A stretch of 64,000 bases of DNA. Origin: Stegostoma tigrinum. Its lineage: Eukaryota. Shown here one piece after another: positions 2,835 to 64,000 of this stretch. Location: the NCBI RefSeq assembly GCF_030684315.1, contig NC_081369.1, positions 2,470,689 through 2,534,688 on the forward strand. Direction: 5' to 3'. The position numbers and the translations under genes are program-made. Positions within the stretch are counted from its first letter, which is position 1, and each line of letters opens with the position of its first letter. The notes under the pieces were generated by a model, which was not told the origin of the DNA, searched no databases, and saw only the letters and a list, made by a program, of their open reading frames with translations.

Positions 2835-4770
2835 TATGTGTACCCCAACAACGGGATATTTTCCTTTCCACCCTGGCAGTGTGGCCCATGTTGGAAAGTC
2901 GCAAAATGGCCCACAGAGGGAAACAAAATAAAACAGCCTGCTCCATTATTAACGCACATAAAGGTACCCTTGAACAGCGCTACTCCAAGGTGAATAGGAG
3001 GCCCTACAAGCAGCCATCCGAGACAGTTTAATAAGAGGATGCCTAAGGACAGACAAGTGATTGATTCCAGCCTCATGAGTGAAAGGATGCTGTCCCATTA
3101 AGTGAACAGTGCCAGTTCGAGCAGGGAGTGTAAATCTCAGCCCATGAATCAGCCAAACTAACTCTATCAGCAGCTGTGAAAACAACAACTTTAGTGGTAG
3201 TATTTGGTTGTTTCTTTCAATTTATTCACAATATTGAGAAATAAATTCTTGATCACAGAATTATTGAATCCCTGCAGCGAGGAAACAGGCCCTTTGGCCC
3301 AACAAGTCCACATCGACCCTCAGAGCATCCCACCCTGATACATTCCCCTGAAAACCACTGAAACTGTTCGTCCTTGAACACCTTGGGCAATTCAGCATGG
3401 CCAATCAGCCAAACCTACACATCTTGGGACTGTGGGAGGAGACTGGAGCACCTGGTGGAAATTGGTGCAGAACACAGGGAGATTGCGCAAACTCCACACA
3501 GACAGTCGCCCGAGGACGGAATGGAACCCGGGTTCCTGGTGCTCTGAGGCAGCAACGCTAACCACCGAGCCACCATGCCACCCTGCGAGTTAAAGATTAT
3601 TCAGAAAATCATGGAGATATATTTCGAGATAATTATAGATACACATGTAACTAAAGTATGTTAGAAGCATTAGGGGGAAAATATTTACACAAAGATGGAA
3701 ATTTTGTTAGTCTCAGAAAACGTTTTCACTTATCTCTAAAGAGATGCCTAGTATACCCTGAAAGAAAAAGATTGGTGACAACGTATTAGTTACAAAGTGC
3801 TGACGATAGAAGGAACTGTATATCTTTACACTTCATATCTAACTTTATAACAGAAATGAATGCCAGAAATCTTAAAGCAGGCGGTTAAAACCAATGATAA
3901 TGGGAACTGCAGATGCTGGAGATTCCAAGATAATAAAATGTGAGGCTGGATGAACACAGCAGGCCTCTCTGATGAAGGGTCTGGGCCCGAAACGTCAGCT
4001 TTTGTGCTCCTGAGATGCTGCTTGGCCTGCTGTGTTCATCCAGCCTCACATTTTATTATCTAGGTTAAAACCAATTGTGTTTTATATCTTTATATATGAT
4101 AGGGTCAGTGGAAAATATGAGGAACAACTGAATTTGATGGACACAGCACATACAATACAATGAAAAACAGAATTCAAGCTGTGCCTAGAGATAAGTAAGT
4201 CTGGGACAGACCAGAACGAGTGTAACCAGTAATGTTACATCCTACATGATAGGATGCATAGAAAGATCCCAAGGCCTCGCGATTAAAGTGTCTGTCAAAC
4301 ACCATGAGACCATGGGAACCTGGGGTTGCCCTTGGGAATGCCCATCATTCATTAGATGTTTCACACGACTGGATGTACAGAATAAAGGGAAAGGACATAT
4401 GACTGCACTGTGTGTGATTATTGTAACATGAAACGTATAAAAATGCCGCAATTCACTGCAAAAATCACAGTGTATCATTGATTTCCCTTCTGATCTGAGC
4501 TGTTGATTAAGAGAGCAAATGCGTGCTTACGTCAGGGCAAGATTCGGGGAAGGTCTTTGGCCCACTCCCTGCAATAATTCGTTGTTGCTTGACTCACAGT
4601 CTGCCACTACCTGAATTCTGCCTGCCTGTTGAGTCATAGTCCCCAGTCGGGGGTAACGCTCTAACACACCCCAAGTTCGTTTGCCACGCAGATGTGATAT
4701 TCTGAGCCTGGGCTTCAAACAGGCAACACAGCCTTCAGAACACTGGATCCTGGCTGCAGAGAGCAGTGTT
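2835..4770 (+). repeat. Low-copy non-coding block, also at ~29860-30790 + 33540-33830 (+) and ~52400-54320 (-)
   Basis: Collinear anchors, e.g. ggtaccct/ttgaaca, ccatccgagacagtt, tgaaaggatgctg, catgggaa(c/a)ctgggg. Confidence 0.75.
3896..4062. mobile_element. Mini Penelope fold-back
   Basis: Inverted PLE termini; perfect 13-bp TSD ggttaaaaccaat (3883-3895, 4063-4075). Confidence 0.88.
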
Positions 4771-7068
4771 TATTCCTCTGTATGATTCCCAATTACAACT
4801 ACACTTCTCGTAACTCGCCACTCTCGGATTGTCGTGTGTACCATGGCGCTGCAGTTAGTTTGGTCATCATCCATACAATGCCTGCTCTCATCTACACTGG
4901 GACCAAGAATTTCAAACCTGTTAGACAAGCTCAAGGGCTGACATTCCTTCAGGCTGATCTCCTGGATCCCTCTGCCTACCTCGCTCAGAGTCACAAAAAA
5001 CAGAAATTGCTGGAAAGAAGCTGCGCAGGTCTGGCAGCATCTGAGAGAAAACAGAGTTAATATTTTGAGTCCAGTGACCCTGCTTCAGAACTTCCCTACT
5101 GACCCTATGCTTACATTTTCATGAATAGTTGCTTGAGTTTTGTGGGGATGCTTCTGTTTCATTTTAGTGAGGTGATCTTGACATAATTCTTCAGTCTGAA
5201 AATCGGATTTCCCCTTTCATCTATTCAGCTGGGCTGTGTCATAAATGCACGCAGATCTTGAGACTTTGAACAAAAGGTATTTCAATGTTCAATGCTGAAT
5301 GGAACATGGCAGATATCCTGTTTGGATGCATGACATATTGCTGCAAGAAATCCAATCACACATGCAGCAGTGTGATGGAAAACGTGAAAGGCTGGGTGAA
5401 GAATAGAGGTACAGTTGGCACAGAGACAAAGCACTGCCTTCAGTAATTCAGTTACCAGTGACCCAAATGAATGTCCAAACTCAAATAGGACTTTATCAAT
5501 GCATTAAGTACCAGATAATAGGTGAAACAAACAGATTGAAAGGATGAACAAATGTTGAGCAGACACATAAATGAATACTTTCAGTTGGTTTGGAATCAAA
5601 AATGAGTATAGTGAGTATGAACAGGTGCGATAGCTGTCAGAAAACATAGCTAACACATTGATCTATGCACAACCACACGAAGTGAAACATTTACATGGCA
5701 ATCATTCCACCTGAGCAAGGTAAACTCATACTAAAATACCACACATAAACAAGTAACCCAAAAGTAATATCAACACACATTGGCTTTCATATACAGACAG
5801 GCAACACAAGGTACATGCATAAGATATACACCCCATAACATTGAGACAAAGCACATGTAGCACATCTTCAAAAGGTATATGTTATGATGAGAAATCTTAC
5901 TTGTTTATATCAGACACATATAGACACGCAAAAGTGAGTCATTCACGGGGAACCTTTGCTCAGCAAAACAGTTAGAGTTTACCAGGGTAAGTTTTTAAAC
6001 AGGTAGATTTTACACAAGCAACACTCCCACTAAGTCAACAACAGTCGTATCACCCAATCGCCAATAAATGATATACACGATAACGTATAGTGTGATTCAT
6101 TCAAAAAACATGATGACAAAGTCACACTTATGAGTAGCAGTCCTCAGCAGTATTGAGTAGCACCATTACCTGCAGCACGAGTGTAATCCCCGCAGAAACT
6201 CTGAGCTATGACCAACAACATCGAGTTTCCACTAAAAGAACACGCAAACACGGTCAGCAACAGCACTGAACACTCGTTGAGATCACCGCCACAAAGTTAA
6301 ACCTTATGAAGTCACAGCAACAGAATTGCTAAGTCAGCAGGAAACAAAATCTCCTCGGAAGAATCAACATAACCAATGGATGACAGAAACGATCAATAGC
6401 AAATTTTCCATCAGGAGCACTTGTCTCACCCAGACACAAGAATATACATCAGTAACTGCACCTTGCTAGCAGCAGTACTCTAACCCAGTAAATCACAGGA
6501 AGCAGGTCGGCGGCAGAAAAAGAACACAACCTATCATGAACTGCACAATCATTGCACGATCACCAGCAGCACTATACATTGTGAACGTGTGTTGGGCAGT
6601 TAGAAAAATCGTTTCCCAGAAGGTTATTGTGTGGACACACATATTTGATCAAAGTTTTGTTTAATTTGGGATGATTTTCCATTCCATAATTTCTATGAAT
6701 TTGGTTCGAATCAAGCGGGCCTATAAACTACAGAGCGCCATGTCAGCTGAAGGGCAGTCACAGTTCTGGGACTCAACACCAAATCAACATTGGTTTTATT
6801 TATAAAAAAGTCACAATGCTATCGAGACGCACAGTTGAGTCTCCACAGCACGCGCCCATCCAAAATCCCGGAGGTGCAGAGAAAACAGTGAATTGAGGGC
6901 TGACTGTTTCATCACACTGCCATGGATATGTGAGCACAAGCTGCTCAACTTGACAATTCGTTAAGAGCTGCAGCAAATCGGAAATGTTCGGTGGATGCAA
7001 AAATATATGTTGTGTTAAAGATCGATGAGAAAGGAAAAGTTTCAAGTTCCACAATGCGCGGTCAACTC

Positions 7069-7076
7069 TGACGTCA
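7069..7076. promoter_or_regulatory. Perfect CRE palindrome TGACGTCA ~170 bp upstream of the gene B ATG
   Basis: Motif match and position only. Confidence 0.35.
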
Positions 7077-10440: not shown

Positions 10441-11038
10441 AGTGGCCTATGGGATATCGAATCTTTGTTACAGAGTATTGCAAGTTGTCTTGTTGAAGAT
10501 TAAGGGAAATGTAACATTGCTGAGAGTGATCCTTTGAGTTGTGAAATCCTGAGAAGTTCTTAGAAAAAGATGGATGTAATGTGAATTTTTCATATGCAGA
10601 GAGTGATAGATATAGTGAATTAGACTACTTTGAAGTATCGAGCTTGTGTTAGTCCGAAAACAGAAGTGTTGGGACAACCAAAAAATTCCACTTCCCATGA
10701 GTTCTGAGAAATTCAAATGTGTGTTAGCTCCAGGAAGAAGTTATTGTTCTTTTTTTGGCAGGGTTGCGCACGGTGGCTCAGTGGTTCGCACTGCAAGCTC
10801 ACAGCACCAAGGACGCAGATTCAATTCCAGCATCAGGCAACTGTCTGTGTGGAGTTTGAACATTCTCCCCATGTCTGTGCAGGTTTGCTCCAGTTTCCTC
10901 CCACAGTCCAAAGACGTGCAGGTTAGATGGATTGGCCATGCTAAATTGCCCATAGTTGTTCAGGGGTGTGTGGGTTATAGGGGGAGGGGGCTGGGTGGGA
11001 TGCTCCAAGGGTCAGTGTGGATTTGTTGGGCTGAAGGG

Positions 11039-11160
11039 AGATAATGGGAACTGCAGAGGCTGGAGAATCCGAGATAACAAAGTGTGAAGCTGGATGAACA
11101 CAGCAGGCCAAGCAACATCTTAGGAGCACAAAAGCTGACGTTTTGGGCCTAGACCCTTCA
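11039..11160 (-). mobile_element. Penelope 3' terminus inserted in a SINE
   Basis: Single arm; perfect 16-bp TSD ttgttgggctgaaggg (11023-11038, 11161-11176). Confidence 0.85.
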
Positions 11161-12149
11161 TTGTTGGGCTGAAGGGCCTGTTTCCACACTGTAGGAATTC
11201 AATGTGAAAGCACAGTTCCAGTCCAAAATTTGTCATTGCACATGTTGTAAGCCTACCAAGATGTTAGATTCAGACAATCTGCATTGTATTATATGTATGC
11301 AATGTTGGGATATACAGTGGAATTTTGTTTTGGGTACAACTCAAAAACTAATTTCTTTCGTATCAATTTATAAAGGAGTATTTTGTAATTAATTGGATTA
11401 TGCATTTTACTCTGTGCTTAAATATTTTAAGTTTGTATTGGAAATTGATCGTTTTGATCATTCTATTTGATCTTTGATCTTATTACTTGCTGTATTGATA
11501 AAGCAAAATTTGTACTAAAGTATGCTTTTGTTTCTGTGAAATGACACTTTGTTAAAACCAAACAGATAAAATTTATGAAATATCAAGTCAGATTCGTAAC
11601 TGAGATCTGATTTATGTGGTTAAAAAAAGACATCAGCTTAGAACAATTACGATGAATACAGCAACGTGCTAATCTCTGTTTACACATCGTGTGTCCTTAA
11701 TCTACACCAGTCCATGATAATCTTATCTCACAGTGAGGTATTGATGACTATATTTATTGTCATGTCTACTTCCATTCTCAATAATATCAAATAGTTCAGT
11801 ATTTTGGACTCTTGTGCTCTTAACTTGCTGATGGAAGTATCCTGACAATTCAGTCAATTATCTTCGCAGATATAATTTTAGCAATTCAGTTTCTGATAAT
11901 GCATTGTTTAAATTTTAGAGCATCAGTTTTCCTCATTGCAGGAAGCATAATAGGACATTTGAAAAAGCACATTTTTGACACAATCACACAATTTTTGAAA
12001 GTAAATACCTGAGCAGAAAGGCAGTATTTTACCCTTTATTAAACACGATGAATAACTCATACAAGTACGAAGGATTTTGATGAGATCTCAGTTACAATAC
12101 TACACATGGTTATGATATCACTGTCTAATGTAGGATATATATTTGCTAT

Positions 12150-13450: not shown

Positions 13451-15012
13451 AATGTTATAAGAATAGTTAGGTGGTTGTTTTTGACCAATGCAGATGTGAT
13501 GGGCTGAAAGGCCATATTTATGCTTTCCATCTCAATGAGTCTATGATGCAATGACTCAAAAAGCACAAATTAATTTGGAAACCCTGGATAATGTCAGGCA
13601 CGAAGAATAACAACAAACACGATTTAGAATGCTCCAAAAAAGGAGTTGGTTCAGAACAATTAGTAAATAGCGTACCTCAGTTTAAGGGATTTAAGTTGCA
13701 CTACAAGGTCATCATCTCCCCTATCATTGATGCAATCAATCAAGCAAGTTTCAGTATGTGACCTGAAATTTTCACAAATAACATTTGTGGAATCATAAGA
13801 ACTGATGGCACTCATGGAATTAAATTCCATAGAATTTAAAGCGAAGTGCCTTTTTAAAGTCATTGCAATATGGTTGTTCTGATCAGTAAACCTCACCACA
13901 GAAAGGAAATTTTGGGAATTTTGAAGACGATCTTCAATGCTGCCAAGAGTTTTGTGGAAATAGGTAACAGTAACAGTAACATAACAGTAGATCACTGAAA
14001 ACTTGGCTAACGCTAAACTGAGAAAGATCATCAACAAATTCCAGATGGAAGTCCAAGGAAGATCATGAAGTGATGCAGAATTCCAAATTATTATCCAATA
14101 TTTCCAACTGAAAAGAAACCTAGAAATTGTGGTGTCACAACCAGATCTAACTAAGCCACAACTATAAGTGAAAGAAACACTTAACAGAGAAAGACAAGGC
14201 AAAATGAAAAGGCATGAGTTAGAAAAAAAGCAGGGAAAGTGAGGAGAAAGATAAAGTGGATAATGAGTAGTGTGTAAAAGAACAATAGGAGTAATGCAAA
14301 TGTACTTCAATGAACAAAACTTGAAAGTAAAGAGACAAAAAAAGCAGAGAAAGTTGAATTATTAAATCAAAACTTGAACTCCATAGGAATAAAGACCATA
14401 AGATATAGAAGAAGAATGCATGGCTGCTCAGAAGTTAGCACTGCTCCTCACAGCACCAGGAACCCAGTTGTGATTCCAGCCTCAGGGGTCTGTCTATGTG
14501 GAGTTTGCACATTTTCCCCTTGTCTGTGATAACAAGGTATAAAGCTGCATGTACACTGCAAAGCTGACATTTCAGGTCTGGATTCTTCTTCTCCTGTCTG
14601 TGTTGGTTTTTGTCAGGTGCTCCAGTTTCCTACCAAATTACAAAGATGACAAGGTACAGAGCTGGATGAACACAGCAGGCCAAGCAGGAAATCTGCTCTA
14701 ATGCTGCTTGGCCTGCTGCGTCCATCCAGCTCTTCACCTCGTTATCTCAGGTTCTCCAGCATCTACAGCTCCAACTATCTCCAAAGATATGTATGTGGAT
14801 TAACCGTGCCAAATTGTTTTTCACGTCCAGGGTTATGCAAGCTAGGTAGATTAACCATGGTTAAATTTGGGGTCATGGTGATAAGGTAGGAATTTGAGTG
14901 GGAATCTCTTTGGAGAATTGGTGCAGACTCAAAGGGGCTAATAGCCTCTTTCTGCACTGTATTAATTCTGTGATTCTAATGCCTTTAGTCCATCAAATCC
15001 ATTCAATGGTAT

Positions 15013-18355: not shown

Positions 18356-19644
18356 AAGGACCTGTGAGAGATAGACTGATGTAAACAGCTTGAGGAAGTC
18401 TACTCACTTTGTTTCGCAACTCCACAGCATCTGTGCCAAACTGCATAAAAGCCGAAAGAACTGCAGATGCTGTAACTTAGTAACAAAAACAGAAGTTGCT
18501 GGTAAAGCTCTCCAGGTCTGGCAGCATCTGTGAAGAGAAATCAGCATTAATATTTCAGGTCCGGGAACTGTCTGGAGGGAACAATTTGTTTTTCTTTCTC
18601 TCTTTCACAATACATACATATCTCTATGCCTTTGAGCAGAGAACTGTAAGCATTGTATACACTTATGAAGTGCCCGTTACTGATTTTCATTTGAATGACC
18701 TCACAATAATTTTACATTTGCAACATCATACTTCATACCCTCAATAAAAGATTCAGTTTCACCATATCTAACTTATCTGCTATTTATTGCTATTTTTACT
18801 CTGGAACAGTTGAATCTTGGAACTTCTGACGAACACACCAAGATATTGTGAAATGCCTTCCTTATTTAACATTTTCACTCCACTGTACTTTTACTAAAAC
18901 TGAGATTCACCATCACAAACTGCCTAGATTTGAAATCATGGGACCGATATTCCTAAAATATAACAGACATCCCTTTAAGCTTAACAGTTACTAGGTTAGA
19001 AAAATGAAATGTGGTCAAAAACTTAAAAATTGACAGTCACAAGTCAACATTTTTGCTCATATTTATCCCGCTCAATTTCATTTCTCATAATTACATTTTT
19101 GTCCACTTTATTAAATAATTTACAGATGGCATCAAAATCTGATACCTGTTTTGCTGGGCGACAGCTGGTGGAGGTTGAAAACGTTTATTTGTGTGTGATG
19201 TTTGATGGTGAAACTGCCCTTGAATGGTAATATGAACCATGGTGTGATGATCTCCCGGTGGATGTGGAGATAACAATCCCAAACCTAAACAATAAACAAT
19301 AAACATGCTGATAAGAGAGTCAGAATCACAGTCTTTTTTTAACTGCAAGGAAAAGCTGTCTTTTGGCCATTGTGCCTGTGCTGGTCATCAAACATCTATT
19401 TACTCTAATCTCATTACCTAGCACTTGTCACCTTGTATGCTACATAGCTTCAAGTACTCACTTAAAGTTTTCTAAAATGACTAAAGGTTCCCCATCTGTA
19501 TTGCTCTTTTAGACAGTTAGCTCAAGATTCTCACAACACTCCATGTGAAATGAAATTCCTCAAACCCCTCTAAATATCTTCTCCTCAGGTTAAAACTGTG
19601 CGCCTTACTATTGATGCATCTACTCAGGGGATATGTTTATTTCT

Positions 19645-19826
19645 GAGATAGTAGGAACTGCAGATGCTGGAGAATCTGAGATAACAAGGTATAGAGCTGG
19701 ATGAGCACAGCAGGCCAAACAGTATCTTAGGAGCAGGAAAGCTGGTGTTTTGGGCCTAGAAGGTTTCCTGATCCTATGATGCTGTTTGGCCTGCTGTGCT
19801 CATCCAATGCTACACTTTGTTATCTC
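19645..19826. mobile_element. Mini Penelope fold-back (older)
   Basis: Inverted termini; TSD atgtttatt(t/a)ct. Confidence 0.75.
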
Positions 19827-21100
19827 ATGTTTATTACTATCTGGCTTATTTATGCTCCGAATAACTTTCCACACTGCTGCAATGGACTTTTAATGTGAGG
19901 GTGTTCCAAATTTATTAACAACTTGGGAAAATGGCATGTTACTGGATTCATGTCATTCATTACATTTTTAAATGCAACTGACGGATGGGGCTGATGGAAT
20001 ATTTGAGTCAATATTTACCTAATTCCATCCCTGTGACATTAAAGATGCAATATAAATTCAAATTATTATCCTTTGAGCTTGGAACAGCATTAGCTAACTG
20101 ATGTCGTTCGAATTTCTTCTTTCCTTTGATGTTAACCCTGAGCCAGACTTTAATGCGCATTGTATGAAACTTATTATCGAGTCATACAGTTGTGCAGCAT
20201 GGAAACAGGTCCAAATAAATCACGCTGAACAGATATCCAAGATTAATCTCTTCCCATTTGTCAGTATTTGGCAAATAGTCCCCTAGACCTTTCCTATTCA
20301 ACAATCCATCCAGGTCCCTTTTAAATGTTGCAATTGTACCAGCCTCCACTCTTTGTCTGTCAACTCAGTCCATACATGAACCACCTTTGGTGTGAAAATA
20401 TTGTCCCTGTACTTTCTGGGGGAAAGACCTTGGCTCTTCACCCTACCCATGCCCCCATTGATTTTATAAACCTCGATAGTGTCACCCCTCAGCCTCTAAC
20501 ACTGCAGGAAACATGGCCCCAGTCTATTCAGCCTCTCTCTGAAGCTCAGTCCAACCCCAGCAACATCATCTGAGGAAATAGTTGGATTTGGTGAAAATGA
20601 AAAGGTATCAGTGACAGAGGTGAAAAATTTTGATTGAGAAAATACAACATCAGCTCATCCAACAACGGATGTCAGTCTCAGAGTGCTGGGGTTGTGCAGT
20701 ATTTGAAAGAGGCAATTATGACCTTACACTGAGTGTCGTAAAATATACGGATAGAAATGGATATGATGTTTCCACATGTAGAACCTTGGAAGCAGCATGG
20801 TTATAAGAAATAGCAGAAATAGGAAAGATCCCTTGACAATTGCAAACATAATGAGATAGAATTGTACAATATTCCACAGAAAATAATTCACATCAAAACA
20901 TAAGAAACAATAGGGAAATCGGAATTAAATGCATTCCCAGGAATCGAATACCTGGAGTTTGGCTCCATCATCATTCATCCAAAAATCTGGAAATAGTTCA
21001 GGAAGAATGAAGAGAGGCCATATTCAGGTGGGAACATCATTTAGGTCTATTGAGAGGAAAGTCAGAGTTGAGGTGGTCTGGAGAATTCATCAATTGTTTT

Positions 21101-22209: not shown

Positions 22210-22835
22210 GCTTCTCTTGAGAAAATGAGGAATACGACAAATTTAACAGATGGAGGGAATGCGCTTAAGCACAGTTAGACATCACTGATATCAGAAAAAA
22301 AGTAGTCTCCTGTTGGTCTTTTCTGCATAAATTTCCCTCTTCTGTTAAATACAGAAGATGGGATTGAATTTTAAATGAGGGCTTCACAGTCAAAAAGTGA
22401 AATGGTGTTGAAAATGAAGGAACATTTCCATTTGTACGGGATTTTGGTAAAGAACTGAAGGCTCATCAACAGGTATTAATCTAAGTGCACATTTGCAATC
22501 AAATATCACATGATTGCTCTTCAGATAACATTCACGCAGTTTTCTGCCCAGATTCCAGTTCATTCAGAAAACCGACCAGAATATCAGTCAAGCGCTGATC
22601 TTCAGCAGGATAGCTCTGATACAAACACTGAGAATGCTTTACTCTCCCCATTTCATATTTCAGCACCATTCTACCGTTGCTCTCCCCAGTCATGCCACGT
22701 ACTTGCTGTAGATTTCCCCACAAGTAAGCCTTCTATGTTGGCTAGATTCTGCTTCAATTTAATAATAGTGGTAAAACCCTTGTTTGCAGGCCATCTTTAT
22801 CCTTCTCCATATGACAAATACCAGACTATACTGTG

Positions 22836-23036
22836 AGAGATAATGGGAACTGCAGATGCTGGAGAATCCAAGACAACAAAATGTGAGGCTGGATGAACAC
22901 AGCAGGCCAAGCAGCATCTCAGGAGCACAAAAGCATCAGAGCTCTCTGATGAAGGGTCTAGGCCTGAAACGTCAGCTTTTGTGCTCCTGAGATGCTGCTT
23001 GACCTGCTGTGTTCATCCAGCCTCACATTTTGTTGC
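22836..23036. mobile_element. Mini Penelope fold-back
   Basis: Inverted PLE termini; perfect 16-bp TSD accagactatactgtg (22820-22835, 23037-23052). Confidence 0.88.
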
Positions 23037-45617: not shown

Positions 45618-47550
45618 ATTGGCAGTGAAATTCCAAGACCATCATTTGTGATTGAGAACAGGACAGACAAATGCTTCTTAAATGCTTGTCTCTGTCTCCA
45701 ATTTAATCACATACGTATGTGTGCACCAAAGAGCACATGACTATTTGCAGATTGAAAAAAAAACACTTGCCCTCTCAAATACAGTCCGCTGCTTTTGTCG
45801 CCAGAAACCGCCACAAAAATGACGACACGAGAGAAGGTACAGAAGGTATATCGGAGGTTGTTGTTGAGACGTGATTGGATTGGATAGGATGAAGATTTTA
45901 CCACAGAAAGAATATGAGCCTGAGGGGGAATTTTATTGGGATGCACACATCTGAGATGAGCCGAGACACAGTAGATAGGGAAAAGTTCAGTAACCTTCAT
46001 ACTGCGGTCAGTGATGCGGGGGTTGTAGATTGAAAGAGATTGATAGGAAAGCTTAACTGGGAGATGAGAAAACAGCTTATCACAGACTGTGGTAACTATG
46101 TGGAACCCATTGCCCGAACAGATATCAGTGACAGGCACCTTTGACTTTTCACAAGTTGTTTTTGCTTGGATGTGCACTTGAAGTGCTGTAATCTGAAAGG
46201 CTTCACGCTAAATCCTCGATAGTATGATTTGATTTGTCGGCTTCTTTCTCGGCAGGCAGAGGCAAGTGCTTTTGGTTTTCAGTGTTGTTAACCTCTTTAA
46301 ATGGAATGTTGTGAAGACCACTGTAATTGTAGCAATTTGAAGGACTTGGAGGCAATACTGCTACACCCCGGAATGCAAGAAGGGAAGTGGGATACAGTTA
46401 TAAACGTCTCACTCCTATATCCGAAAGAATTGAGCCGGAATATCAGATTAACCTGCCGAAATCTTTTTTCTTATTACATTTTAAACGCCTCTACAAATTT
46501 AAATTGCATAGCCGACTTCAAGTTTCCAACATCGGAGGAAGCGTCCGTTCAGCGTCCGTCCAGTTCAGGCTCCTCAATGTTAGGTCCACATGGAAGATAT
46601 ATATTCTTACTTTTCTAAACTCAAATGGGTACAGGCCCCATTTGTTCAACCTCACTTCAATTTTTTTGCTTAATTTGATAAAGAGAATAAAGTCACCCAT
46701 TATTACTGATGTCCCGAATCACAAACACCAATATTTCCTCTTGTATGTTTTGTCTCACATTAATGACTGTTCAGTATCTTGCAGACCCCTTGTCTGTTGT
46801 TTTATTTCCTACTATCCCCAATTTCTACCCAAATAGATTTATCACCCTGATTCTCTGAATGACTGTAAAATCTAAATATTGCACAAATGGCATCCATGAT
46901 TGGATAGTCATGATTTGCAATCCTTTCACCATCACCTCGTTTCCTAACCTTAGTGTGTGTTCTTATTTCAAAATATTTGGTACTCAATACTTATACGCTA
47001 TGTCACCACAATGTTATAAAATTGTAATTGTTTCTGTTTATGTATGGTCTGAACTCACTTATTTTGTGAACAACCCAATGAGCATTTCCAAATGTATATT
47101 CATCAGTTTGTTCATTTTTGCCAACTTTGTAACACCTCATCTTGACTGGTAATGTATTCCTTCTCTCTCTCTCTCTCTTTGCCTTTTGTGCCTTTCTCTG
47201 AAGCTCATTTCCCTTGTTCTTATTTTTCTCTCTTCACTTATCTTTACCCTGTGATAGACATCATCTTTCTACGTGACCTCTTGCTTCCACCATTTAGCTG
47301 AAAGCCCTCTCGATTTACCTAGTTATGCCAGCCCCAAGAACACTGCCTGTAGCATGGTTCTGGTCAATCACAATGGTACAGATGTCAATCTCCCCAGTAC
47401 AGCTGGCTGTTCCTCATGACTAACTTCTCTGTCACAATTCTTTGGAAGGAGGCTACTATTAATCTCTGATGACATATGTGCCTTATTTAGAGCTGACTGT
47501 TGTTCTTGAGAAGCTTCCTTGAGGGGAAAATAAGCTCCAGATGAATGGTA

Positions 47551-48603
47551 GATAAAAAAATGTGAGGCTGGATGAACACAGCAGACCCAGCAGCATCTCA
47601 GGAGCACAAAAGCTGAAGTTTCTGGCCCAGACCCTTCATCAGAGAGGGGGGTGGGGTGAGGGTTCTGGAATAAATAGGGAGAGAGGGGGAGACGGACTGA
47701 AGATGGAGAGAAAAGAAGATAGGTAGAGAGGAGAGTATACGTGGGGAGGTAGGGAGGGGATAGGTCAGTCCAGGGAAGACGGACAGGTCAAGGAGGTGGG
47801 ATGAGGTTAGTAGGTAGGAGATAGAGGTGCGGCTTGGGGTGGGAGGAAGGGATGGGTGAGAGGAAGAACAGGTTAGGGAGGCAGGGACAGGCTGGACTGG
47901 TTTTGGGATGCAGTGGGTGGAGGGGAAGAGCTGGGCTGCTTGTGTGGTGCAGTGGGGGGAGGGGACGAACTGGGCTGGTTTAGGGATGCGGTGGGGGAAG
48001 GGGAGATTTTGAAGCTGGTGAAGTCCACATTGATACCATTGGGCTGCAGGGTTCCCAAGCGGAATATGAGTCGCTGTACTTGCAACCTTCGGGTGGCATC
48101 ATTGTGGCACTGCAGGAGGCCCATGATGGACATGTCATCTGAGGAATGGGAGGGGGAGTGGAAATGGTTCGTGACTGGGAGGTGCAGTTGTTTATTGCGA
48201 ACCAAGCGGAGGTGTTCTGCAAAGCGGTCCCCAAGCCTCCGCCTGGCTTCCCCAATGTAGAGGCAGCCACACCGGGTACAATGGATACAGTATACCACAT
48301 TGGCAGATGTGCAGGTGAACCTATGCTTAATATGGAAAGTCATCTTGGGGCCTCGGATAGGGGTGAGGGAGGAGGTGTGGGGGCAAGTGTAGCACTTCCT
48401 GCGGTTGCAGGGGAAGGTGCCAGGTGTGGTGGGGTTGGAGGGCAGTGTGGAGCGAACAAGGGAGTCATAGAGAGAGTGGTCTCCCGGAAAGCAGACAAGG
48501 GTGGGGATGGAAAAATGTCTTGGGTGGTGTGGTCAGATTGTAGATGGCGGAAGTGTCTGAGGATGATGCGTTGTATCCGGAGGTTGATGGGGTGGTGTGT
48601 GAG
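47551..48603 (-). mobile_element. Penelope-like 3' fragment (GIY-YIG + 3' end)
   Basis: ORF 47873-48343 NVVYCIHCTRCGCLYIGEARRRLGDRFAEH; near-identical to 60596-61650. Confidence 0.9.
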
Positions 48604-50554
48604 ACCCCCTCGTTCGCACAACAACCTCTGTATGAAAAAGTTGCCCTTAGACCTCTTTTTAAATCATACCCCTATTACCTTAAACCTTCACCCTCTAGTT
48701 TTGTAATCCTCCACCTCGGGGAAATTAGTGATTATTCATCCTATCCATGGCCTATGATTTTATAAATCTGTATAGGGCCACCCAATACCCTCCGACACTC
48801 CGAAGAAAATAGCTGTAGCCTATTCAGTCTCTCCTGATTTATTAAACCCTCCAGCCATGGTAAATGTCTCGTAAATCTTTTCTGAACCCTTTCAAGTTTA
48901 ACAACATCTTTCCTATTGCAATGAGATCATGGTTTTAAGAGAAACACTATTCCAGGTTTTTATGGCATTCAAATTACACCAGTTAGCTCTAGTTGCTCTC
49001 TTATAGAACAGATATTATTAACCTAGAAAGAATGCGTTAAAACGTACTGGGGGACATTCGTAGCCTATACCATATCGCCAAGAGAGCAGTTAGCAACCAT
49101 TCAATTTATAGTGAGCCACATGCAGGCCAATTGACAATGGCTGAATTACTTCCACAGGACATTAGTAAACTAATGGAAGTAACTACATGAAAATCTTGGA
49201 CTTCTTGTTCACAGATCACTGAAGGTGGCAGGGCTGGTTAAAGGAATGGTTAAGAAACATACAGGGCACATGCTTATGTCTGGAATGGTACAGATTATAA
49301 GAGGAGAGAGGCTACTTTGGAATTTTACAGGACTTTCGTTAGTCCAGAGCGGGAGTGCTATGTTCATTAAGATTTCCTAGGATCCTCCGTGGACTGGAAG
49401 ATTTGAGTTATAAGGAGAGGCTGGATAGTGTGGGCCTTCTTTCCCTAGACCATTGGAGACTGAAGGGTGACCTTACATAGGTCTGAAAAATCATGAGAGG
49501 CAGAGGTAAGTAGATAGCTAACAGCTTTTCCTCATAGTAAGACAGCCTAAGATTCAAAGGCATAGGTTTGAGGTAAAAGGGGAGAGATACAAACGAATCT
49601 AGAGGAGCGATATTTTGACAAACAGGATGATGTGTGTTTGGAATAGCCTGCCAGAGGTAGTGGTGGTTAATTCACTGTAGAGTGGCCCTTTGCCCAGACA
49701 GAGCAGACTGATGCTCCATCCGTGATTGCCCTTTGTTTAGCATTGCAATCTCATTGTAATATGGTACAGTAGGACAAGATGGTATGTCTGATGAATGTTT
49801 CTGAATCATGAAAATGTGTTCTTCATTGAAGTGGGAATGAAATTAGAGAAAAGAAATCAATTTACATTTGAACAAATCATGTTGACATATGCCTAAGTAA
49901 TTCTTTCAATACATTTGTGTGTTCTATTCTCAAAAATGGCATATAACTAATACAGATTCCAAATAAATTACAATGCTTCTCTTATTATATTGTGAAAAAT
50001 TCTCCAGACTCAATTGATTTGGAAAATAGAGCAATCTAATCTATCACCATTGCTGCATTGTGAATTTGCTACTGACAGGAATGCATTCTGTGGCTTGCCT
50101 ATCAAAAACTTAGAAATACAAAGCCATGAAAATGAATTAGCAGTCTGAATAGTTTTTGAAAGGCTGCTTGAAAGTTGTGCACTGGCGATGGAAAGGCAGC
50201 ACAGATGATGACAAATTCTGTTTGTCTTGTTGGAAAAGATTGGACAGCTGCAAAGATGAAGAAGTTGGTTGACTGAAACATGTAAAATCTTCGGGGGTCT
50301 TGACAAGGTAGATATGGTGACATATCGTCCCATGGAAAAATCTAAAACGAGGTACAATGGTTATAAAAAAAATCAGAGTTTGACCATTTAAAACAGCGTT
50401 AGACATACATTCTCTCACAGGTGTCTGAGTCTTTTGGAATACTATTCCTAAAAAGGTAACAGAAGCAAGGTTGAATATTTTTAAGTCACCAACTGATAGA
50501 TTCCAGTGGAGCAAAGAAGTGAAAGATTGCCACGAGTACTGTTTAAATTTGGGG

Positions 50555-51665: not shown

Positions 51666-53498
51666 TTTGTGGCTACAATCAGATTTGTGATGACCTTGTT
51701 TGAACAACTTTTCTGATTTTGTGTCCCCAAAGGACTGCCTTCTCGTCCCAATCAATTTATTGAATGTTCAGACTAATAGAGCAGGCTCGAGACACTGACT
51801 TTCTGACACTTGCTTCAAATTCGATTGTTCACATCAACATAACCTGATTTCCTCGTGTGTAAAGAAAAATACCAATAAGGAAGAATTGGGGGAAATCATA
51901 CATTGCTTTAGATTTTAATTAGGTAAACCATAAGGTTCCACAACGGAGTTTATGATGAAGTAATTTTATGCAATTGTGTGTACGGTGAATTTATTGTCCC
52001 TAGGCACCTTCTTAACAGAATTGCCTTGGATTATTGGTGGGAATGCTCTTTTGCTGACCTGTGAATTGTCTTGTTCCAAGGTACCAGTGTGTATCACTTA
52101 AAAAGCATACTTTTATTGTTTTTAACCAAGATTTGTTTGTCATTTTTCAATTTCAGATACCTTATTGTTTCATGTTTTGTAATGTAAACAATGTTTCTTC
52201 CTGTGTCACATGGAAGATCAGTGAGCACCATGAATGTTAATTCATTCCCTGAGTGTAAAGGTTAGCCGATCGGCAACAAACAGAAAATAGATTTTTAAAG
52301 AAGGGTTGTGTTTGGCACTGGAGAGTCTAACTGGTGGGTCAAGCAAAATTCCAAGTTTGGACGTCAGCTATTTCACCTTGTTGTCTGCTTACAAAGGGTC
52401 TCAGATAATGTATCAACATTTATTCACATGAAATTACAAGATTCAAAGTGTGTGAATCATGTGTGAAAGGAGAGTATTGACAACTGGGGACAAAGTCTCA
52501 TGAGGCAGGCAGGATTCAGGCAAGTGGAAGATGTTAATTCAAGCAAAAACCAGTTGATGCAGTGAGAGAGCCAATAAATCTTCCCCGAATCAGAAGGGAG
52601 ATCACTGGCATACTCTGATTTTTACAGTGAAAATACATCATTTTATACATTTTCTGTTACAACTACCAAATACTGTGTAGCCACTGTCTCTCTCCCTTAA
52701 TCCAGACACCCAATCTAGTGGAACACCTAATCAATGATGATCATTCCTATGGACAGCCCCAGGTTCCCATGATTTTATGGTGTTTACCAGACATTGTAAT
52801 CTCTAAGCCTTGGGATTTATCTGCACACCCTATTCATTCACTTTCCAAAGTTACTGGCTACACTCCTTTGTATCTGTCTCAGGCTTCTCATCACTTGAGT
52901 TCTATTATTTATTGTGTTACATCTGCTTTCTTTTATCAAATTCAGCTATTCCTCCAATATTTTCCACAGTCCTAATTGTACAGTAAAAGTATAAAAGACA
53001 GTTAGTAGTTTTATCAATCTACTATAAGGTTAATTTCTATCATAAAGTTAGTTATAAAATGTAAAGTTGTGCAATTATCTGTAATGTAAGCACGTTGTAA
53101 ATATTAGGTTGTGAACAATCTATCTTGCTCAGGGTGGAAGACAGTATTTCCTGAGGCTAATTAACTTTTGCATCCAAGTTTAAATGCTTTTCCCCTCATA
53201 CTTGTATTATGCTTCGGTAATATATTAAAGCTACTTCCATGATTAAGGGAGTTTTAACCAGAGTCAATTTAATATTTCAGTAAGTTTCAAAGATGCAAGT
53301 ATTTACAACAAAGTAACTTTAGCTGCAGTTTTTTACAGCTCTTTAGCAAGTGAAAGAAAGTTAATCTCGCCGGCTCATGGGCTAAAACTGACACCTTGTG
53401 TCATTTGTTTTTTGTGACGATCATCCTTTCATCAGAGGCTGTGATTAGTTACTTAACCATCCCTAGGCACCTTCTTAACAGAATTGCCTTGGATTATT

Positions 53499-54154
53499 GA
53501 TAATAAAATGTGAGGCTGGATGAACACAGCAGGCCCAGCAGCATCTCAGGAGCACAAAAGCTGACGTTTCGGGCCTAGACCCTTCATCAGAGAGGGGGAC
53601 GGGGTGAGGGTTCTGGAATAAATAGGGAGAGAGGGGGAGGCGGACCGAAGATGGAGAGAAAAGAAGATAGGTAGAGAGGAGAGTATACGTGGGGAGGTAG
53701 GGAGGGGATAGGTCAGTCCAGGGAAGACGGACAGGTCAAGGAGGTGGGATGAGGTTAGTAGGTAGGAGTTAGAGGTGCGGCTTGGGGTGGGAGGAAGGGA
53801 TGGGTGAGAGGAAGAACAGGTTAGGGAGGCAGAGACAGGTTGGACTTGTTTTGGGATGCAGTGGGTGGAGGGGAGGAGCTGGCCTGTCTGTCTTCCCTGG
53901 ACTGACCTATCCCCTCCCTACCTCCCCACCTATACTCTCCTCTCCACCTATCTTCTTTTCTCTCCATCTTCGGTCCGCCTCCCCTTCTCTCCCTATTTAT
54001 TCCAGAACCCTCACCCCATCCCCCTCTCTGATGAAGGGTCTAGGCCCGAAACGTCAGCTTTTGTGCTCCTGAGATGCTGCTGGGCCTGCTGTGTTCATCC
54101 AGCCTCACATTTTATTATCTTGGATTCTCCAGCATCTGCCGTTCCCATTATCAC
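53499..54154. mobile_element. Penelope 3'-end fold-back insertion (~655 bp)
   Basis: Two inverted copies of the PLE 3' end joined at ~53883; 15-bp TSD tgccttgg(a/g)ttattg at 53485-53499 and 54155-54169. Confidence 0.9.
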
Positions 54155-54323
54155 TGCCTTGGGTTATTGGTGGGAAGGCTCTTTTGCTGACCTTTGAATT
54201 GTCTTGTTCCAAGGTACCAGTGTGTATCATTTAAATACTACAGCAGGCTTTTGCATTTTGTTTTAATCCTTGTCGACCATTTTGTGCTTCAAATGTGCGC
54301 TGCTTTGGTGAAGCAGATATGGG

Positions 54324-58755: not shown

Positions 58756-60659
58756 TATTATATAAGAAATATTGATTGTTTGCAATTAAGGTACACCAAT
58801 AGTAATGGGTAAGTTTAATCTCTGAAAATTGCCTGAAATAAAATGAGATTCGAGAGAGGGTGAACAGTTTGGCCGATACCCATAGGATTTTATTCATGTC
58901 AGATTATGCATCATTTGTATTGAGACAATTAGATGGGACATTCGTGGAGCAGACGCTAAGTGGATGGCTGTCCTGGAGACTCAAATTCAACCAGTCTAAA
59001 AATAAGAGTCTCATTGCTGAGGTAGGTATGACTTTTTCCCTTCTGTCAGAGGATCATTAGCTCTTGAACTTCTCTTTCATGGAAAGCAGTAGATGCAGGA
59101 CAATTGAATATTTTCAGGTTGCTTTAGATCATTTCTGGATACAGTTGGAGCCAATGAATGTGACACAGGAAACTGGAGATTGAGACCACACTCAGATCGG
59201 ATATCTTCTCATCCAATCAGATATGATCACAGCCTGAAAGAGCAGAATTTCACTCCTGCACTTAACTCTCATGTTCCTATTTTCCATATTCCTTCATACA
59301 ACTGCTGTTTGGCAGGGGTTATCTAGCAACTAAATATGATATGGTTCATAGTTGCTAACATATGCAGTGTAAACAAAACAACAGCCATTCTGCTACAACA
59401 ACCTATGCCTGGTTTTGCTCCTGCTACTCCCTCCTCTTTTTCATTGAGCCAGTTTCGATCACTGTGGTCATGTTTAGCAATTCTGTCGTGGATAGATGCT
59501 TCTGCAACTGACGGGCTGGTGAAGGTGAGCTCAAGTGCAGATTCTTTCCCACAAATTGACAGCCCAGTCCTGGGCTGTTCAGTGTTCAGCATGTACCTCA
59601 TTCAATACCTTACAAATGCCACAGAAAAGGGTTGAAGGTATCTGTTAGATCTCACATTTTCAACGAGAGTCTGAATTGCGGGAGAGATTCTGGTGACGTT
59701 TATTTGTGATTTACAGCTCAGTTACAGCATACAACAAAAAGGATCAGGAAAGAAAAACAGCACAAAGGCATCTTAACTCATACAATTTAAATGTTGGCTG
59801 CACTCACACTGCACCCCCCAGTACTTTAATTACTATTGGTCAGCAATGCCAAGTTGCCCATCTGTAATTGACTCTTGGCTTGCTAATTACTGAGATGTGC
59901 TTGGTGTACATCTCTGATCATGATGTTCTCACAGACCTTCTTATTTACCTACTCCATGTTAATTGGCGATTAATTAGATCAAGAATTTTTAAATTTCTCA
60001 TTACAGGGAATACAAAAGTTGCAATGATAAGGGGGAGATATTTTTCCTGTGTGAAAATAGTTTAAATCATTTGGTGAATTTTCAGCATATCACAGATTGA
60101 TTAAATATTTGAAGAGAAACAATGAATTCTGCAACTTTGACTTGTTCGCTGCTATGCAAAGTACTGTTATTTTATCAAATGTTACATGTTGTCAGCTATA
60201 TTCTTATGAGAATGATTGTGCATTCAGCAACCTTGAGAAATGTTACTGTCAGCATTAGCTATGGGCAGCCCTAACAGCTATTTTGTGACTCAGTTATGGG
60301 CATCCCTAACAATCCCTGCTTTGAAACCCCCTCAAGCAAATCACAAAGCGAAAAAGTATATAGCTACATACACAGGATTGATTTATTAAGCTGGAATGAT
60401 TGTCTCACGGGTTGCTTTTCTTTCAGGAGTCTGACCTGCAGATCAACAGTAGAAATGACCTGTTGCCAACAACATTTGATTCATAAAAACAAACACTACA
60501 AAATGAGAATTACGACAACAAATACCAGTATACCCAGCACCAGGAATGTTCCTAAAGACCCCAATCATCTTGGAGCCGAACTACACAGAGTGGCGGATAA
60601 TAAAATGTGAGGCTGGATGAACACAGCAGGCCCAGCAGCATCTCAGGAGCACAAAAGCT

Positions 60660-60687
60660 GACGTTTCGGGCCCAGACCCTTCATCAG
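60660..60687 (-). ncRNA. Minimal hammerhead ribozyme motif (also - 30890-30917, 53563-53590; mutated at 47615-47642)
   Basis: Reverse complement reads CTGATGAAGGGTCTGGGCCCGAAACGTC. Confidence 0.7.
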
Positions 60688-63081
60688 AGAGGGGGATGGG
60701 GTGAGGGTTCTGGAATAAATAGGGAGAGAGGGGGAGGCGGACCGAAGATGGAGAGAAAAGAAGATAGGTGGGGAGGAGAGTATAGGTGGGGAGGTAGGGA
60801 GGGAATAGGTCAGTCCAGGGAAGACGGACAGGTCAAGGAGGTGGGATGAGGTTAGTAGGTAGGAGATGGAGGTGCGGCTTGGCGTGCGAGGAAGGGATGG
60901 GTGAGAGGAAGAACAGGTTAGGGAGGCAGAGACAGTTTGGAACGGTTTTGGGATGCAGTGGGTGGAGGGGAAGAGCTGGGCTGCTTGTGTGGTGCAGTGG
61001 GGGGAGGGGACGAACTGGGCTGGTTTAGGGATGCGGTGGGGAAGGGGAGATTTTCAAGCTGGTGAAGTCCACATTGATACCATTGGGCTGCGGGGTTCCC
61101 AAGCGGAATATGAGTTGCTGTTCCTGCAACCTTCAGGTGGCATCATTGTGGCACTGCAGGAGGCCCATGATGGACATGTCATCTAAAGAATGGGAGGGGG
61201 AGTGGAAATGGTTTGCGACTGGGAGGTGCAGTTGTTTATTGCGAACTGAGCTGAGGTGTTCTGCAAAGCGGTCCCCAAGCCTCCGCTTGGTTTCCCCAAT
61301 GTAGAGGAAGCCACACCGGGTACAGTGGATGCAGTATACCACATTGGCAGATGTGCAGGTGAACCTCTGCTTAATGTGGAAATTCATCTTGTGGCCTGGG
61401 ATAGGGGTGAGGGAGGAGGTGTGGGGGCAAGTGTAGCATTTCCTGCGGTTGCAGGGGAAGGTGCCGGGTGTGGTGCGGTTGGAGGGCAGTGTGGAGTCAA
61501 CAAGGGAGTCATGGAGACAGTGGTCTCTCCAGAAAGCAGACAGGGGTGGGGATGGAAAAATGTCTTGGCTGGTGGGGTCGGATTGTAGATGGCGGAGGCG
61601 TCGGAAGATGATGCGTTGTATCTGGAGGTTGGTGGGATGGTGTGTGAGAACGAGGGGGATCCTCTTAGGGCGGTTGTGGCGGGGGCGGGGTGTGAGGGAT
61701 GTGTTGCGGGAAATGCAGGAGATGCGGTCAAGAGCGTTCTCGACCACTGTGGGGGGAAAGTTGCGGTCCTTGAAGAACTTGGACATCTGGGATGTGCGGG
61801 AGTGGAATGCCTCATCGTGGGAGCAGATGCAGCGGAGGTGGAGGAATTGGGAATAGGGGATGGAATTTTTGCAGGAGGGTGGGTGGGAGGAGGTGTATTC
61901 TAGGTAGCTGTGGGAGTCGGTGGGCTTGAAATGGACATCAGTTACAAGCTGGTTGCCTGAGATAGAGACTGAGAGATCCAGGAAGGTGAGGGATGTGCTA
62001 GTGATGGCCCAGGTGAACTGAAGGTTGGGGTGGAGGGAGTTGGTGAAGTGAATGAACTGTTCGAGCTCCTCTGGGGAGCAAGAGGCGGCGCCGATACAGT
62101 CATCAATGTAACGGAGGAAAAGGTGGGGTTTGGGGCCTATGTGGGTGTGGAAGAGGGACTGTTCCATGCAACCTACAAAGAGGCAGGCATAGCTGGGGCC
62201 CATGCGGGTGCCCATGGCCACCCCCTTAGTCTGTAGGAAGTGGGAGGAATCGAAAGAGAATTTGTTGAGGGTGAGGATGAGTTCGGCTAGGCGGATGAGG
62301 GTGTCGGTGGAGGCGGACTGGTCGGGCCTGAGGAACAGGAAGAAGCGGAGGGCCTTGAGGCCATCTGCATGCGGAATGCAGGTGTATAGGGACTGGACGT
62401 CCATGGTGAAAATGAGGTGTTGGGGGCCAGGGAATTGGAAGTCCTGGAGGGGGTGGAGGGCATTGGTGGTGTCACGGACGTAGGTGGGGAGTTCCTGGAC
62501 CAAAGGGGAGAAAATGGCTTGGTTTGCAATAAACAACTGCACCTCCCAGTCGTAAACCATTTCCACTCCCCCTCCCATTCTTTAGATGACATGTCCATCG
62601 TGGGCCTCCTGCAGTGCCACAATGATGCCACCTGAAGGTTGCAGGAACAGCAACTCATATTCCGCTTGGGAACCCCGCAGCCCAATGGTATCAATGTGGA
62701 CTTCACCAGCTTCAAAATCTCCCCTTCCCCCACCGCATCCCTAAACCAGCCCAGTTCGTCCCCTCCCCCCACTGCACCACACAAGCAGCCCAGCTCTTCC
62801 CCTCCACCCACTGCATCCCAAAACCAGTCCAAACTGTCTCTGCCTCCCTAACCTGTTCTTCCTCTCACCCATCCCTTCGTCCCACCCCAAGCCGCACCTC
62901 CATCTCCTACCTACTAACCTCATCCCACCTCCTTGACCTGTCCATCTTCCCTGGACTGACCTATCCCCTCCCTACCTCCCCACCTATACTCTCCTCCCCA
63001 CCTATCTTCTTTTCTCTCCATCTTCGGTCCGCCTCCCCCTCTCTCCCTATTTATTCCAGAACCCTCACCCCATCCCCCTCT

Positions 63082-63109
63082 CTGATGAAGGGTCTAGGCC
63101 CGAAACGTC
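63082..63109 (+). ncRNA. Minimal hammerhead ribozyme motif in a Penelope terminus (also + 3969-3996, 22946-22973, 27638-27665, 54028-54055)
   Basis: CTGATGA-a-GGGTctagGCCC-GAAA-C-GTC: core CUGANGA/GAAA, stem II, self-complementary ACGU stem III, GUC cleavage triplet; stem I is very short. Confidence 0.7.
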
Positions 63110-64000
63110 AGTGTTTGTGCTCCTGAGATGCTGCTGGGCCTGCTGTGTTCATCCAGCCTCACATTTTATTACCTTGGATTGTCCAGCATCTGCAGTTCCC
63201 ATTATCACTTACACAGAGCGGCGGTTGGGCGTTGTTTTGGTTTATTCATATCTTTTCAGATATGCATTGCTAAATGAGTGACTGTTCTGAAAGTTATCTG
63301 AGCTACAATTTGGCCTAACTGGGCACAAGTGCTTCCCTTTTCAGCCAGTATCCAAACATGTGCCATTCTATTCTGTCACGCTTTTTTACAGACGGCTGCA
63401 ATTTCAGCATTTATTTTGATCCAAGGCCCCTGCAGTATCATTGGGCACCTGTTCTAGGTTATCTATCATGTTGATAGATTGCCTCGTCAGTTTTACAGTT
63501 CTGTCTGAGCGTATCGAAATGCCAATGAATTTCTCTGTCTCTCTAATGGCTGTTGTAAATATTAGCCAATGGTGTATCACAGGGAGGGAGAACAAATAAT
63601 GGGCAAATAGGTGGCAAAAAACTCAAGTAACACAATCCTGTCCATGATGAATTTTACACTTGCTGTATCCCATTTCCAGCCCTCTCGTCCGGGTCTTACG
63701 TAAACATAACTCTCCTGTTTGACCTCCCCATTCCAGAGGGTAAGGATCAAGAAAGGAGGTTATTGTGAGGTGCTATAATGAGGCTGATCCCAGCTTTAAA
63801 AGGCTGCCAGGGGCATTCTGGCAAATTAGCCCAACAAGTTGTCCATCTGTTTTGGCTCACTCCTGCACGTAGATTACAACACTCAGTGTTCCTCATCCTT
63901 CCCTTGGGCATGATTTAGAGTTTCTCCCAATAAACTTTCACTGTGGAAGAGGCGCCTTGTGTTTCAATGAAGGCTTGCTTCAAGGTGGCCTGGGACTGTG

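What the first reader, a model, noticed from the sequence alone, without database searches (positions are those of the whole stretch)
3883..63224. Penelope fold-back insertions with long TSDs and a one-sided ~30-nt tail, from ~0.17 to 2.6 kb
Seen: at least eight inserts consist of two outward-ending inverted copies of the PLE 3' end, with arms of unrelated length (3896, 19645, 22836, 27503, 35580, 53499, 55996, 60596). Most are flanked by recognisable 12-16 bp TSDs. Only one arm carries the terminal tail (..ggattctccagcatctgcagttcccattatc); the other stops near ..cacattttattatc. Known: PLEs form inverted pseudo-LTRs and have optional 3' extensions. Inference: both nicks of a staggered cut prime reverse transcription at two fixed 3' positions and the two cDNAs are joined, so MITE-looking palindromes would arise anew at each retrotransposition.
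Basis: partly seen in the sequence, partly recalled or inferred. Interest (0 to 1): 0.7.

Follow-up and report, generated by a model that had tools for sequence, protein, structure and literature searches.

The report
Twin-primed shark Penelope hairpin insertions
These mirror-image insertions are real ends of a very abundant shark jumping gene (a Penelope-like retrotransposon) in an already described layout, and their exact ends suggest each was likely built on the spot by two enzyme subunits copying one RNA from two fixed start points, often running off the RNA's likely capped start or its predicted ribozyme cut.

Summary
All eight inserts exist; six have clear TSDs. The layout (inverted pLTR, TSD, 30-40-nt tail on one arm) is published, and two-strand nicking with two RT start sites is shown in vitro for a lizard element.

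In 1.66 Mb of this genome plus 28 further loci: the tail is on exactly one arm in 100 of 104 two-armed inserts and on both in none; 40 of 47 young pairs have TSDs (mode 14-16 bp) against 0 of 150 shuffles. Arm lengths are not unrelated: 35 both short, 14 both long, 2 mixed. The arms share private variants, which points to one RNA template. The tailed arm is often the shorter, so simple fold-back fails.

Short arms stop at two walls: 96 nt upstream of the tailless end (30 nt below a TATA-like box, with an extra G, likely the cap) and at the predicted hammerhead cut (64 nt). Short junctions recur up to about 150 times, but the one examined spans subfamilies and both tail sides, so not a MITE.

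Known kind; the end-map is a useful mechanistic lead. This scan found it before on other shark DNA.

The parts
3883..4075 (.). Insert 1: 13-bp TSD (3883-3895, 4063-4075); tailed arm 3896-3965 (37 nt + tail); tailless arm 3964-4064 (98 nt, to the upper wall); 2-nt microhomology at the centre
19633..19838 (.). Insert 2 (older, about 85% to the young reference): 12-bp TSD with one mismatch; tail on left arm
22820..23052 (.). Insert 3: 16-bp exact TSD; tailed arm of 63 nt (ends at predicted hammerhead cut); tailless arm of 96 nt preceded by an extra G; 7-nt templated-looking insertion at the centre
27489..27728 (.). Insert 4 (old, 77%): palindrome with tail on left; TSD candidate 11 bp with 1 mismatch, not above chance
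35564..35826 (.). Insert 5 (old, 83%): tail on right; 15-16-bp TSD with one indel
53485..54169 (.). Insert 6: 15-bp TSD; tailless arm 386 nt (53499-53884); tailed arm 238 nt + tail (to 54154); 7-nt microhomology; junction unique in the genome
55988..56188 (.). Insert 7 (old, 72%): tail on right; TSD candidate 13 bp with 2 mismatches, not above chance
60582..63224 (.). Insert 8: 15-bp TSD; tailless arm 1924 nt (60596-62521); tailed arm 649 nt + tail (62522-63209); blunt junction unique in the genome
61136..62515 (-). 5'-truncated PLE ORF piece: RT (YIDD), CX4CXXC linker, GIY-YIG endonuclease with CCHH-type residues; ends where a deletion/frameshift breaks it
53994..54055 (+). TATA-like TATTTAT (53994), inferred start site 30 nt below it (-96), and minimal hammerhead core 54028-54055 with predicted cut after GUC (-64); same module in every long arm
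54120..54154 (+). Tail: the stretch between the two RT start sites, bounded by two ATTATC motifs; in tandem copies it runs on into the element's leader
11023..11176 (-). Single-armed tailed copy (89 nt + tail) with 16-bp exact TSD
14644..14783 (.). Further small palindrome, tail on right, no clear TSD
30790..33420 (-). Single-armed tailed copy of about 2.6 kb, no TSD found
47550..48604 (-). Single-armed tailless copy of about 1.05 kb, no TSD found

Best explanation
These are insertions of a Neptune-type Penelope-like retrotransposon, each likely made when a dimer of its RT-endonuclease nicks both target strands about 14-16 bp apart and uses both nicks to prime cDNA on the same RNA, one subunit at the tail end and the other about 36 nt further in. 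Shown in sequence: the TSD, one tail per insert, coupled arm lengths, shared variants, 1-4 nt microhomology at both target joins and at the centre. Inferred: the two antisense cDNAs anneal or are ligated at their 3' ends and each templates the other's second strand; a one-armed insert is the case where one cDNA is near zero length. About 70% of two-armed inserts are short hairpins because the start sites lie close to the RNA's 5' end and both RTs would run off it, either at the likely capped start (-96, extra G) or at the predicted hammerhead cut (-64). Long arms would come from a downstream pLTR copy in a tandem transcript.
For: One tail in 100 of 104 two-armed inserts, two tails in 0, p about 2e-25 against independent choice; this holds for inserts with internal tandems, L091 and L112. 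TSD in 40 of 47 young pairs vs 0 of 150 shuffled; maximal length mode 14-16, n=42. Same T-rich, A-poor bases after both nicks, p 3e-6 each. Microhomology of 2 nt or more at 26 of 57 tailed and 22 of 57 tailless ends vs 17-19% chance, and at 15 of 45 centres vs 15%. Arms both short 35, both long 14, mixed 2; none 101-169 nt. Private alleles in both arms 36 of 9284 positions vs 33 of 90587 across inserts; L091, L112, L140 carry one private internal junction in both arms. Tail-only and tailless-only single arms both carry TSDs, several with 10-16-nt remnants of the other arm. Genome-wide, with a fixed 42-48-nt partner arm, long arms starting at -104..-110: 2, -94..-100: 392, -85..-91: 121, -72..-78: 26, -61..-67: 262; corrected for anchor decay 3, 490, 184, 48, 296. 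G precedes -96 in 8 of 8 sampled ends and is 9 of 10 untemplated bases there's listing (hand count; test). PAc nicks and extends both strands from two internal start sites and models as a dimer (PMC11167929).
Against: PAc showed no strand difference in start site, no primer-template homology, no need for ribozyme cleavage, and no RNA-seq reads ending at the cut. No overall bias of tail to the shorter arm (35 vs 23, p 0.15), which a trailing-RT picture might predict; the bias appears only at one junction (18 vs 2). Shared alleles could come from one donor locus or arm-to-arm gene conversion rather than one molecule; in 2 of 14 long inserts (L144, L152) the partner is not among the closest arms, and among 44 young short pairs it is closest in only 19. 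34 of 100 listed junctions at the -64 wall use a CAGC microhomology, and a U4 run at -61..-58 could itself release the cDNA. 18 of 45 centres have small insertions rather than microhomology.
Confidence: 0.65

Rival explanations
1. Twin priming as above, but each subunit copies its own RNA molecule; the one-tail rule comes from an asymmetric dimer, and likeness of the arms from one active donor locus or later gene conversion.
For: Explains TSD, one-sided tail and symmetric target bias. Cis preference for one donor would give shared alleles. Avoids strand displacement on one RNA.
Against: A tandem donor yields both short-leader and long templates, so mixed short/long inserts should be common; only 2 of 51 are. 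Eight short inserts have both arms at or under 64 nt with none whose longer arm is 65-81.
Confidence: 0.17
2. One nick primes one cDNA whose 3' end folds back and is copied back toward the target (fold-back or self-priming, possibly on an antisense template as proposed in PMC3846280); the endonuclease then trims one end.
For: Some centres are near-perfect palindromes (L098, L056, L048). Arms identical in subfamily. Published proposals.
Against: A fold-back copy cannot be longer than its template or gain a tail; the tailed arm is shorter in 26 of 50, down to tail-only remnants. Both outer ends show primer-type microhomology with the target. Walls with an extra G fit a sense RNA 5' end.
Confidence: 0.08
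3. The short hairpins are a non-autonomous MITE- or SINE-like family copied as a unit.
For: Size clusters near 200-240 bp; one junction recurs 43 times, another in 40 of 100 listed of 392.
Against: 50 of 50 sampled junctions differ. The 21 inspected loci of the 43 fall in several subfamilies, with tail on the short arm in 18, the long arm in 2, neither in 1, and both arms match each locus's own subfamily. Two longer junctions are unique.
Confidence: 0.04
4. The mechanism is twin priming, but the -64 pile-up is an RT release point (U4 run, microhomology) unrelated to ribozyme cleavage.
For: Most listed ends lie at -61/-62 or use CAGC microhomology. PAc data found no cleaved ends in RNA-seq. Notes on other genomes report stops before the ribozyme only.
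Against: In the 100 listed, 6 end exactly at -64, 8 at -64/-65, none at -66/-67 (hand count); the count falls about six-fold in the next bin after correction; the limit coincides with the GUC cut predicted independently.
Confidence: 0.3

Closest known systems
EN+ Penelope-like element insertions with inverted pLTR, tail and TSD (Pen2a_Av and others, PMC3846280; Fig. 2 of PMC8557442)
   Same: Inverted 5'-truncated copy, 30-40-nt tail on one end, TSD, palindromic centres.
   Different: TSD longer here (14-16 vs 8-10 bp). Those papers propose antisense self-priming or endonuclease resolution; the passages read give no counts of tail side, arm coupling or walls.
PAc (Poseidon of Anolis carolinensis) in vitro, PMC11167929
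   Same: Both strands nicked and extended, two internal RT start sites that bound the tail, predicted dimer, T-rich nick site, hammerhead cut 26 nt after the ATG in the core (25 nt here).
   Different: PAc is Poseidon clade; this has the Neptune/Nematis linker. In vitro there was no strand asymmetry, no primer homology and no role for cleavage; inverted inserts and TSDs are not discussed in the text searched.
Minimal type I hammerheads of metazoan PLEs (PMC4209133)
   Same: CUGANGA core, unpaired base before stem II, no loop 3, palindromic 15.2-16.2, pairs on opposite strands 100-700 bp apart.
   Different: That paper notes no in vivo evidence of cleavage; the -64 wall may be such evidence.
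L1 twin priming and cap-derived G (Ostertag and Kazazian 2001, seen only as cited in PMC4859970)
   Same: Second nick primes a second cDNA on the same RNA; untemplated G marks a capped 5' end.
   Different: In L1 the second primer lands upstream at random and inverts a different segment; here both start at fixed sites 36 nt apart and duplicate the same segment.

Membership tests
EN+ Penelope-like element | RT followed by C-terminal GIY-YIG endonuclease in one ORF | tested here: met
   RVT_1 E 1.7e-5 and GIY-YIG E 1.1e-3 in that order, both below Pfam cut-offs; 645 relatives at E<=1e-20, several with both domains
EN+ Penelope-like element | CCHH residues with two Cys between GIY and YIG; DKG motif | tested here: met
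   VVYCIHCTRC, YIGET, two later His; DKG in longer copies L099, L167, L133 (definition)
EN+ Penelope-like element | pLTR/partial tandem, inverted copy, 30-40-nt tail | tested here: met
EN+ Penelope-like element | Minimal hammerhead in the pLTR | tested here: met
   132 descriptor matches in 1.664 Mb vs 0 in reversed control; stem I CT/AG, TT/AA, CA/TG. Rfam has no hit. Cleavage not testable.
Neptune/Nematis clade | CX2-5CXXC linker between RT and EN | tested here: met
   CNRRKCYTC (definition)
Neptune/Nematis clade | RT phylogeny with named Neptune members | not tested
   no named reference set was fetched
Neptune/Nematis clade | Insertion bias for microsatellites (hypothesised for Neptune) | tested here: not met
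   42 reconstructed target sites are ordinary sequence
Penelope/Poseidon clade | No Zn-finger linker | tested here: not met
   linker present
MITE / non-autonomous unit | Copies share one internal junction and both termini by descent | tested here: not met
   only one recurrent junction was inspected at locus level
MITE / non-autonomous unit | Short fixed TSD and true terminal inverted repeats | tested here: not met
   TSD 10-22, ends asymmetric and ragged

The most novel reading that the evidence does not exclude
Penelope-like elements integrate by obligatory twin priming: one RNA is read at once by two RT subunits from two sites 36 nt apart, and tens of thousands of shark hairpins are a fossil 5'-end map showing both a capped pLTR transcript and in vivo self-cleavage of the minimal hammerhead, with the cleaved RNA still used as template.
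Probability: 0.45. Interest if true: 0.7.

Novelty: new member of a known kind. Interest (0 to 1): 0.45.

Why it matters
How Penelope-like elements (the sister group of telomerase) make their inverted ends and one-sided tail, and whether their tiny ribozymes cut in cells, are stated open questions (PMC8557442, PMC4209133, PMC11167929). The strict one-tail rule, the single-template signal and the two walls give sharp predictions for the existing in vitro system. Practically, these hairpins should be annotated as abortive PLE insertions, not MITEs.

Tried and rejected
No RNA holder listed for the pLTR-leader stretch, so the start site and cut could not be checked on reads. Contig depth from four runs of one sample shows the tail at about half the core and the leader at about 3%; the tool warns this is no copy number, so it is not used as support. 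Folding of the start region gives no stable structure (z +1.09), though the tail can pair with -48..-41. Rfam finds nothing relevant. A 69-base DNA search returned nothing because the words are too common. A general tail-on-shorter-arm bias was tested and not found (p 0.15). Genome-wide counts of tail side, and tail side at the commonest junction, remain unmeasured. Automatic tail calls gave 2 two-tail and 8 no-tail cases through reference artefacts and were redone. Seven tail/tail neighbours among 19 uncovered pairs: L091 and L112 are internal tandems, L065 has unrelated DNA between; L031, L103, L137, L177 have 326-4454 uncovered bases and were taken as separate inserts without reading them. 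No structure or complex prediction was run.
Full report
Observation. All eight inserts are present as outward-ending inverted pairs, with the tail on one arm each. Six have clear TSDs of 12-16 bp; those of 27503 and 55996 are within chance. Positions below are counted from the tailless end (0); negative is into the element.

Identity. The window lies in a 3.2-Gb genome; the best named protein relatives are from carpet sharks, 84-89% identical. The long arm of insert 8 encodes RT, a CX4CXXC linker and a GIY-YIG domain with CCHH-type residues, the Neptune/Nematis pattern defined in PMC8557442 (passages). Each end carries a minimal hammerhead: 132 descriptor matches in 1.664 Mb against 0 reversed, predicted cut at -64. 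In tandem copies the tail runs on into a leader, so both ends are internal to the RNA.

Sample. I used the window plus 160 stretches of 10 kb (20 near the window, 140 at round coordinates), and 28 loci. End positions are bimodal, near 0 and near +33 to +39. The tail is on exactly one arm in 53 of 54 young and 36 of 39 older inserts, never on both; the young exception, L169, keeps the tail's outer 7 nt after a deletion. Eleven further two-armed inserts (ten long, one short bystander) all have one tail. Together 100 of 104. One row (L163) was dropped before this count as a false second arm. TSDs score 9 or more in 40 of 47 young pairs, 31 of 77 young singles and 21 of 36 old pairs; shuffles gave 0 of 150, 0 of 70 and 2 of 150. 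Maximal TSD length is 10-22, mode 14-16 (n=42). Bases +2 to +4 beyond both TSD edges are T-rich and A-poor on the nicked strand, symmetrically. Both outer ends show more microhomology with the target than chance.

One template. Of 54 young two-armed inserts, 50 entered the length table; L091, L112, L140 (internal repeats) and L064 were set apart, and four lengths were corrected by hand. With L064 added back: 35 both at or under 100 nt, 14 both longer, 2 mixed. All 50 junctions differ. Private alleles are shared by both arms ten times more often than across inserts (36 of 9284 vs 33 of 90587), and rare alleles in 13 of 76 pairs vs 123 of 5700. L091, L112 and L140 each have an internal junction of their own in both arms. 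Against: L144 and L152 do not show arm likeness, and gene conversion or a single donor could mimic it. The tailed arm is shorter in 26, longer in 21, equal in 3. That excludes plain fold-back for the first group, since a fold-back copy cannot outgrow its template or gain a tail.

Two walls. With the partner arm fixed at 42-48 nt, genome-wide counts by start of the other arm are 2 (-104..-110), 392 (-94..-100), 121 (-85..-91), 26 (-72..-78) and 262 (-61..-67); corrected for anchor decay, 3, 490, 184, 48, 296. No listed arm passes -98 (100 of 392 listed, all 50; hand reading). TATTTAT begins exactly 30 nt above -96, and similar boxes sit at like distance in older families. The base before -96 is G in 8 of 8 sampled ends, two being one palindrome read on both strands, and in 9 of 10 untemplated cases (hand count). 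For L1 and SVA such a G is read as the copied cap (PMC4859970, passages). I infer a capped start at -96. At the lower wall, of 100 listed of 262, 34 use a CAGC microhomology, 6 end at -64, 8 at -64/-65 and none at -66/-67 (hand count). This fits ribozyme-cut RNA as template, but a U4 release point is not excluded.

MITE test. The junction of insert 1 occurs 43 times; those of inserts 6 and 8 once. In 21 of the 43 (the window's and the first 20 listed) the copies span several subfamilies, with the tail on the short arm in 18, on the long arm in 2 and on neither in 1. This is recurrence at a wall, not descent. The commonest junction (40 of 100 listed) has a 4-nt microhomology; its loci were not read.

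Mechanism. Shown: the anatomy and counts above. Known: two-strand nicking and extension from two start sites by PAc, with a predicted dimer (PMC11167929, parts 1-2 of 4 and passages). Inferred: one RNA, one subunit per start site, cDNAs joined at their 3' ends (microhomology of 2 nt or more in 15 of 45, small insertions in 18 of 45), run-off at the RNA's 5' end. That PLE RTs lack RNase H, which lets one RNA be read twice, is recalled, not checked.

Prior art. The layout is in PMC3846280 (passages), PMC8557442 (passages) and PMC8969392 (passages); opposite-strand hammerhead pairs are in PMC4209133 (part 1 of 4 and passages). Searches found no paper on PLE twin priming, cap-G run-off or ends at the hammerhead cut; the library lacks most subscription journals, and Arkhipova 2006, Evgen'ev and Arkhipova 2005 and Schostak 2008 were not read. 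This scan's notes hold 66 findings on the same layout in at least 10 genomes, and several report the cap G and the cut-site pile-up. I recorded the two walls in my notebook before looking, and noticed the G; those notes are not independent support.

Verdict. Real, a new member of a known kind. Interest 0.45.

Noticed in passing
window 2182-2550 (-), 43096-43509 (-), 44901-45365 (-): Exons with immunoglobulin V-set and C1-set domains (Pfam E 2e-10 and 5e-13; weak Ig hit for the first), suggesting a tandem cluster of Ig-superfamily receptor genes.
   Followed up: partly
window 38257-38508 and about 57310-58760: Palindromic inserts of more distant PLE families with the same layout; the second has a TATA-like box and TCAGTT just before its hammerhead-like core.
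   Followed up: partly
L091:6750-8434, L112:4977-6183: Inserts built of 440-nt and 301-nt units (leader joined to pLTR) repeated in both arms, still with one tailed and one tailless outer end and a 12-15-bp TSD; could reflect a short tandem donor or a circular template.
   Followed up: partly
L022:2342-2574 (same insert as L028): At least three tandem 51-nt copies of one arm's inner end at the centre, suggesting repeated template jumps during joining.
   Followed up: no
L060:1229-1276, L048:5240-5298: Two tailed ends of separate inserts facing each other 33-57 nt apart; possible preference for inserting beside an existing tail.
   Followed up: no
window 50828-51751 (-), 36231-36917 (+), 17143-17532 (-): Fragments of a non-LTR RT (RVT_1 E 1.5e-21 for the first); CR1-like by recall of the motifs.
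   Followed up: no
window 52022-52036: A third copy of insert 6's 15-bp target sequence lies 1.5 kb upstream, so that target is itself in repeated DNA.
   Followed up: no
window 33819-34883 (+) and 57852-58391 (-): Decayed ORF pieces of older PLE families (no Pfam hit for the first).
   Followed up: no
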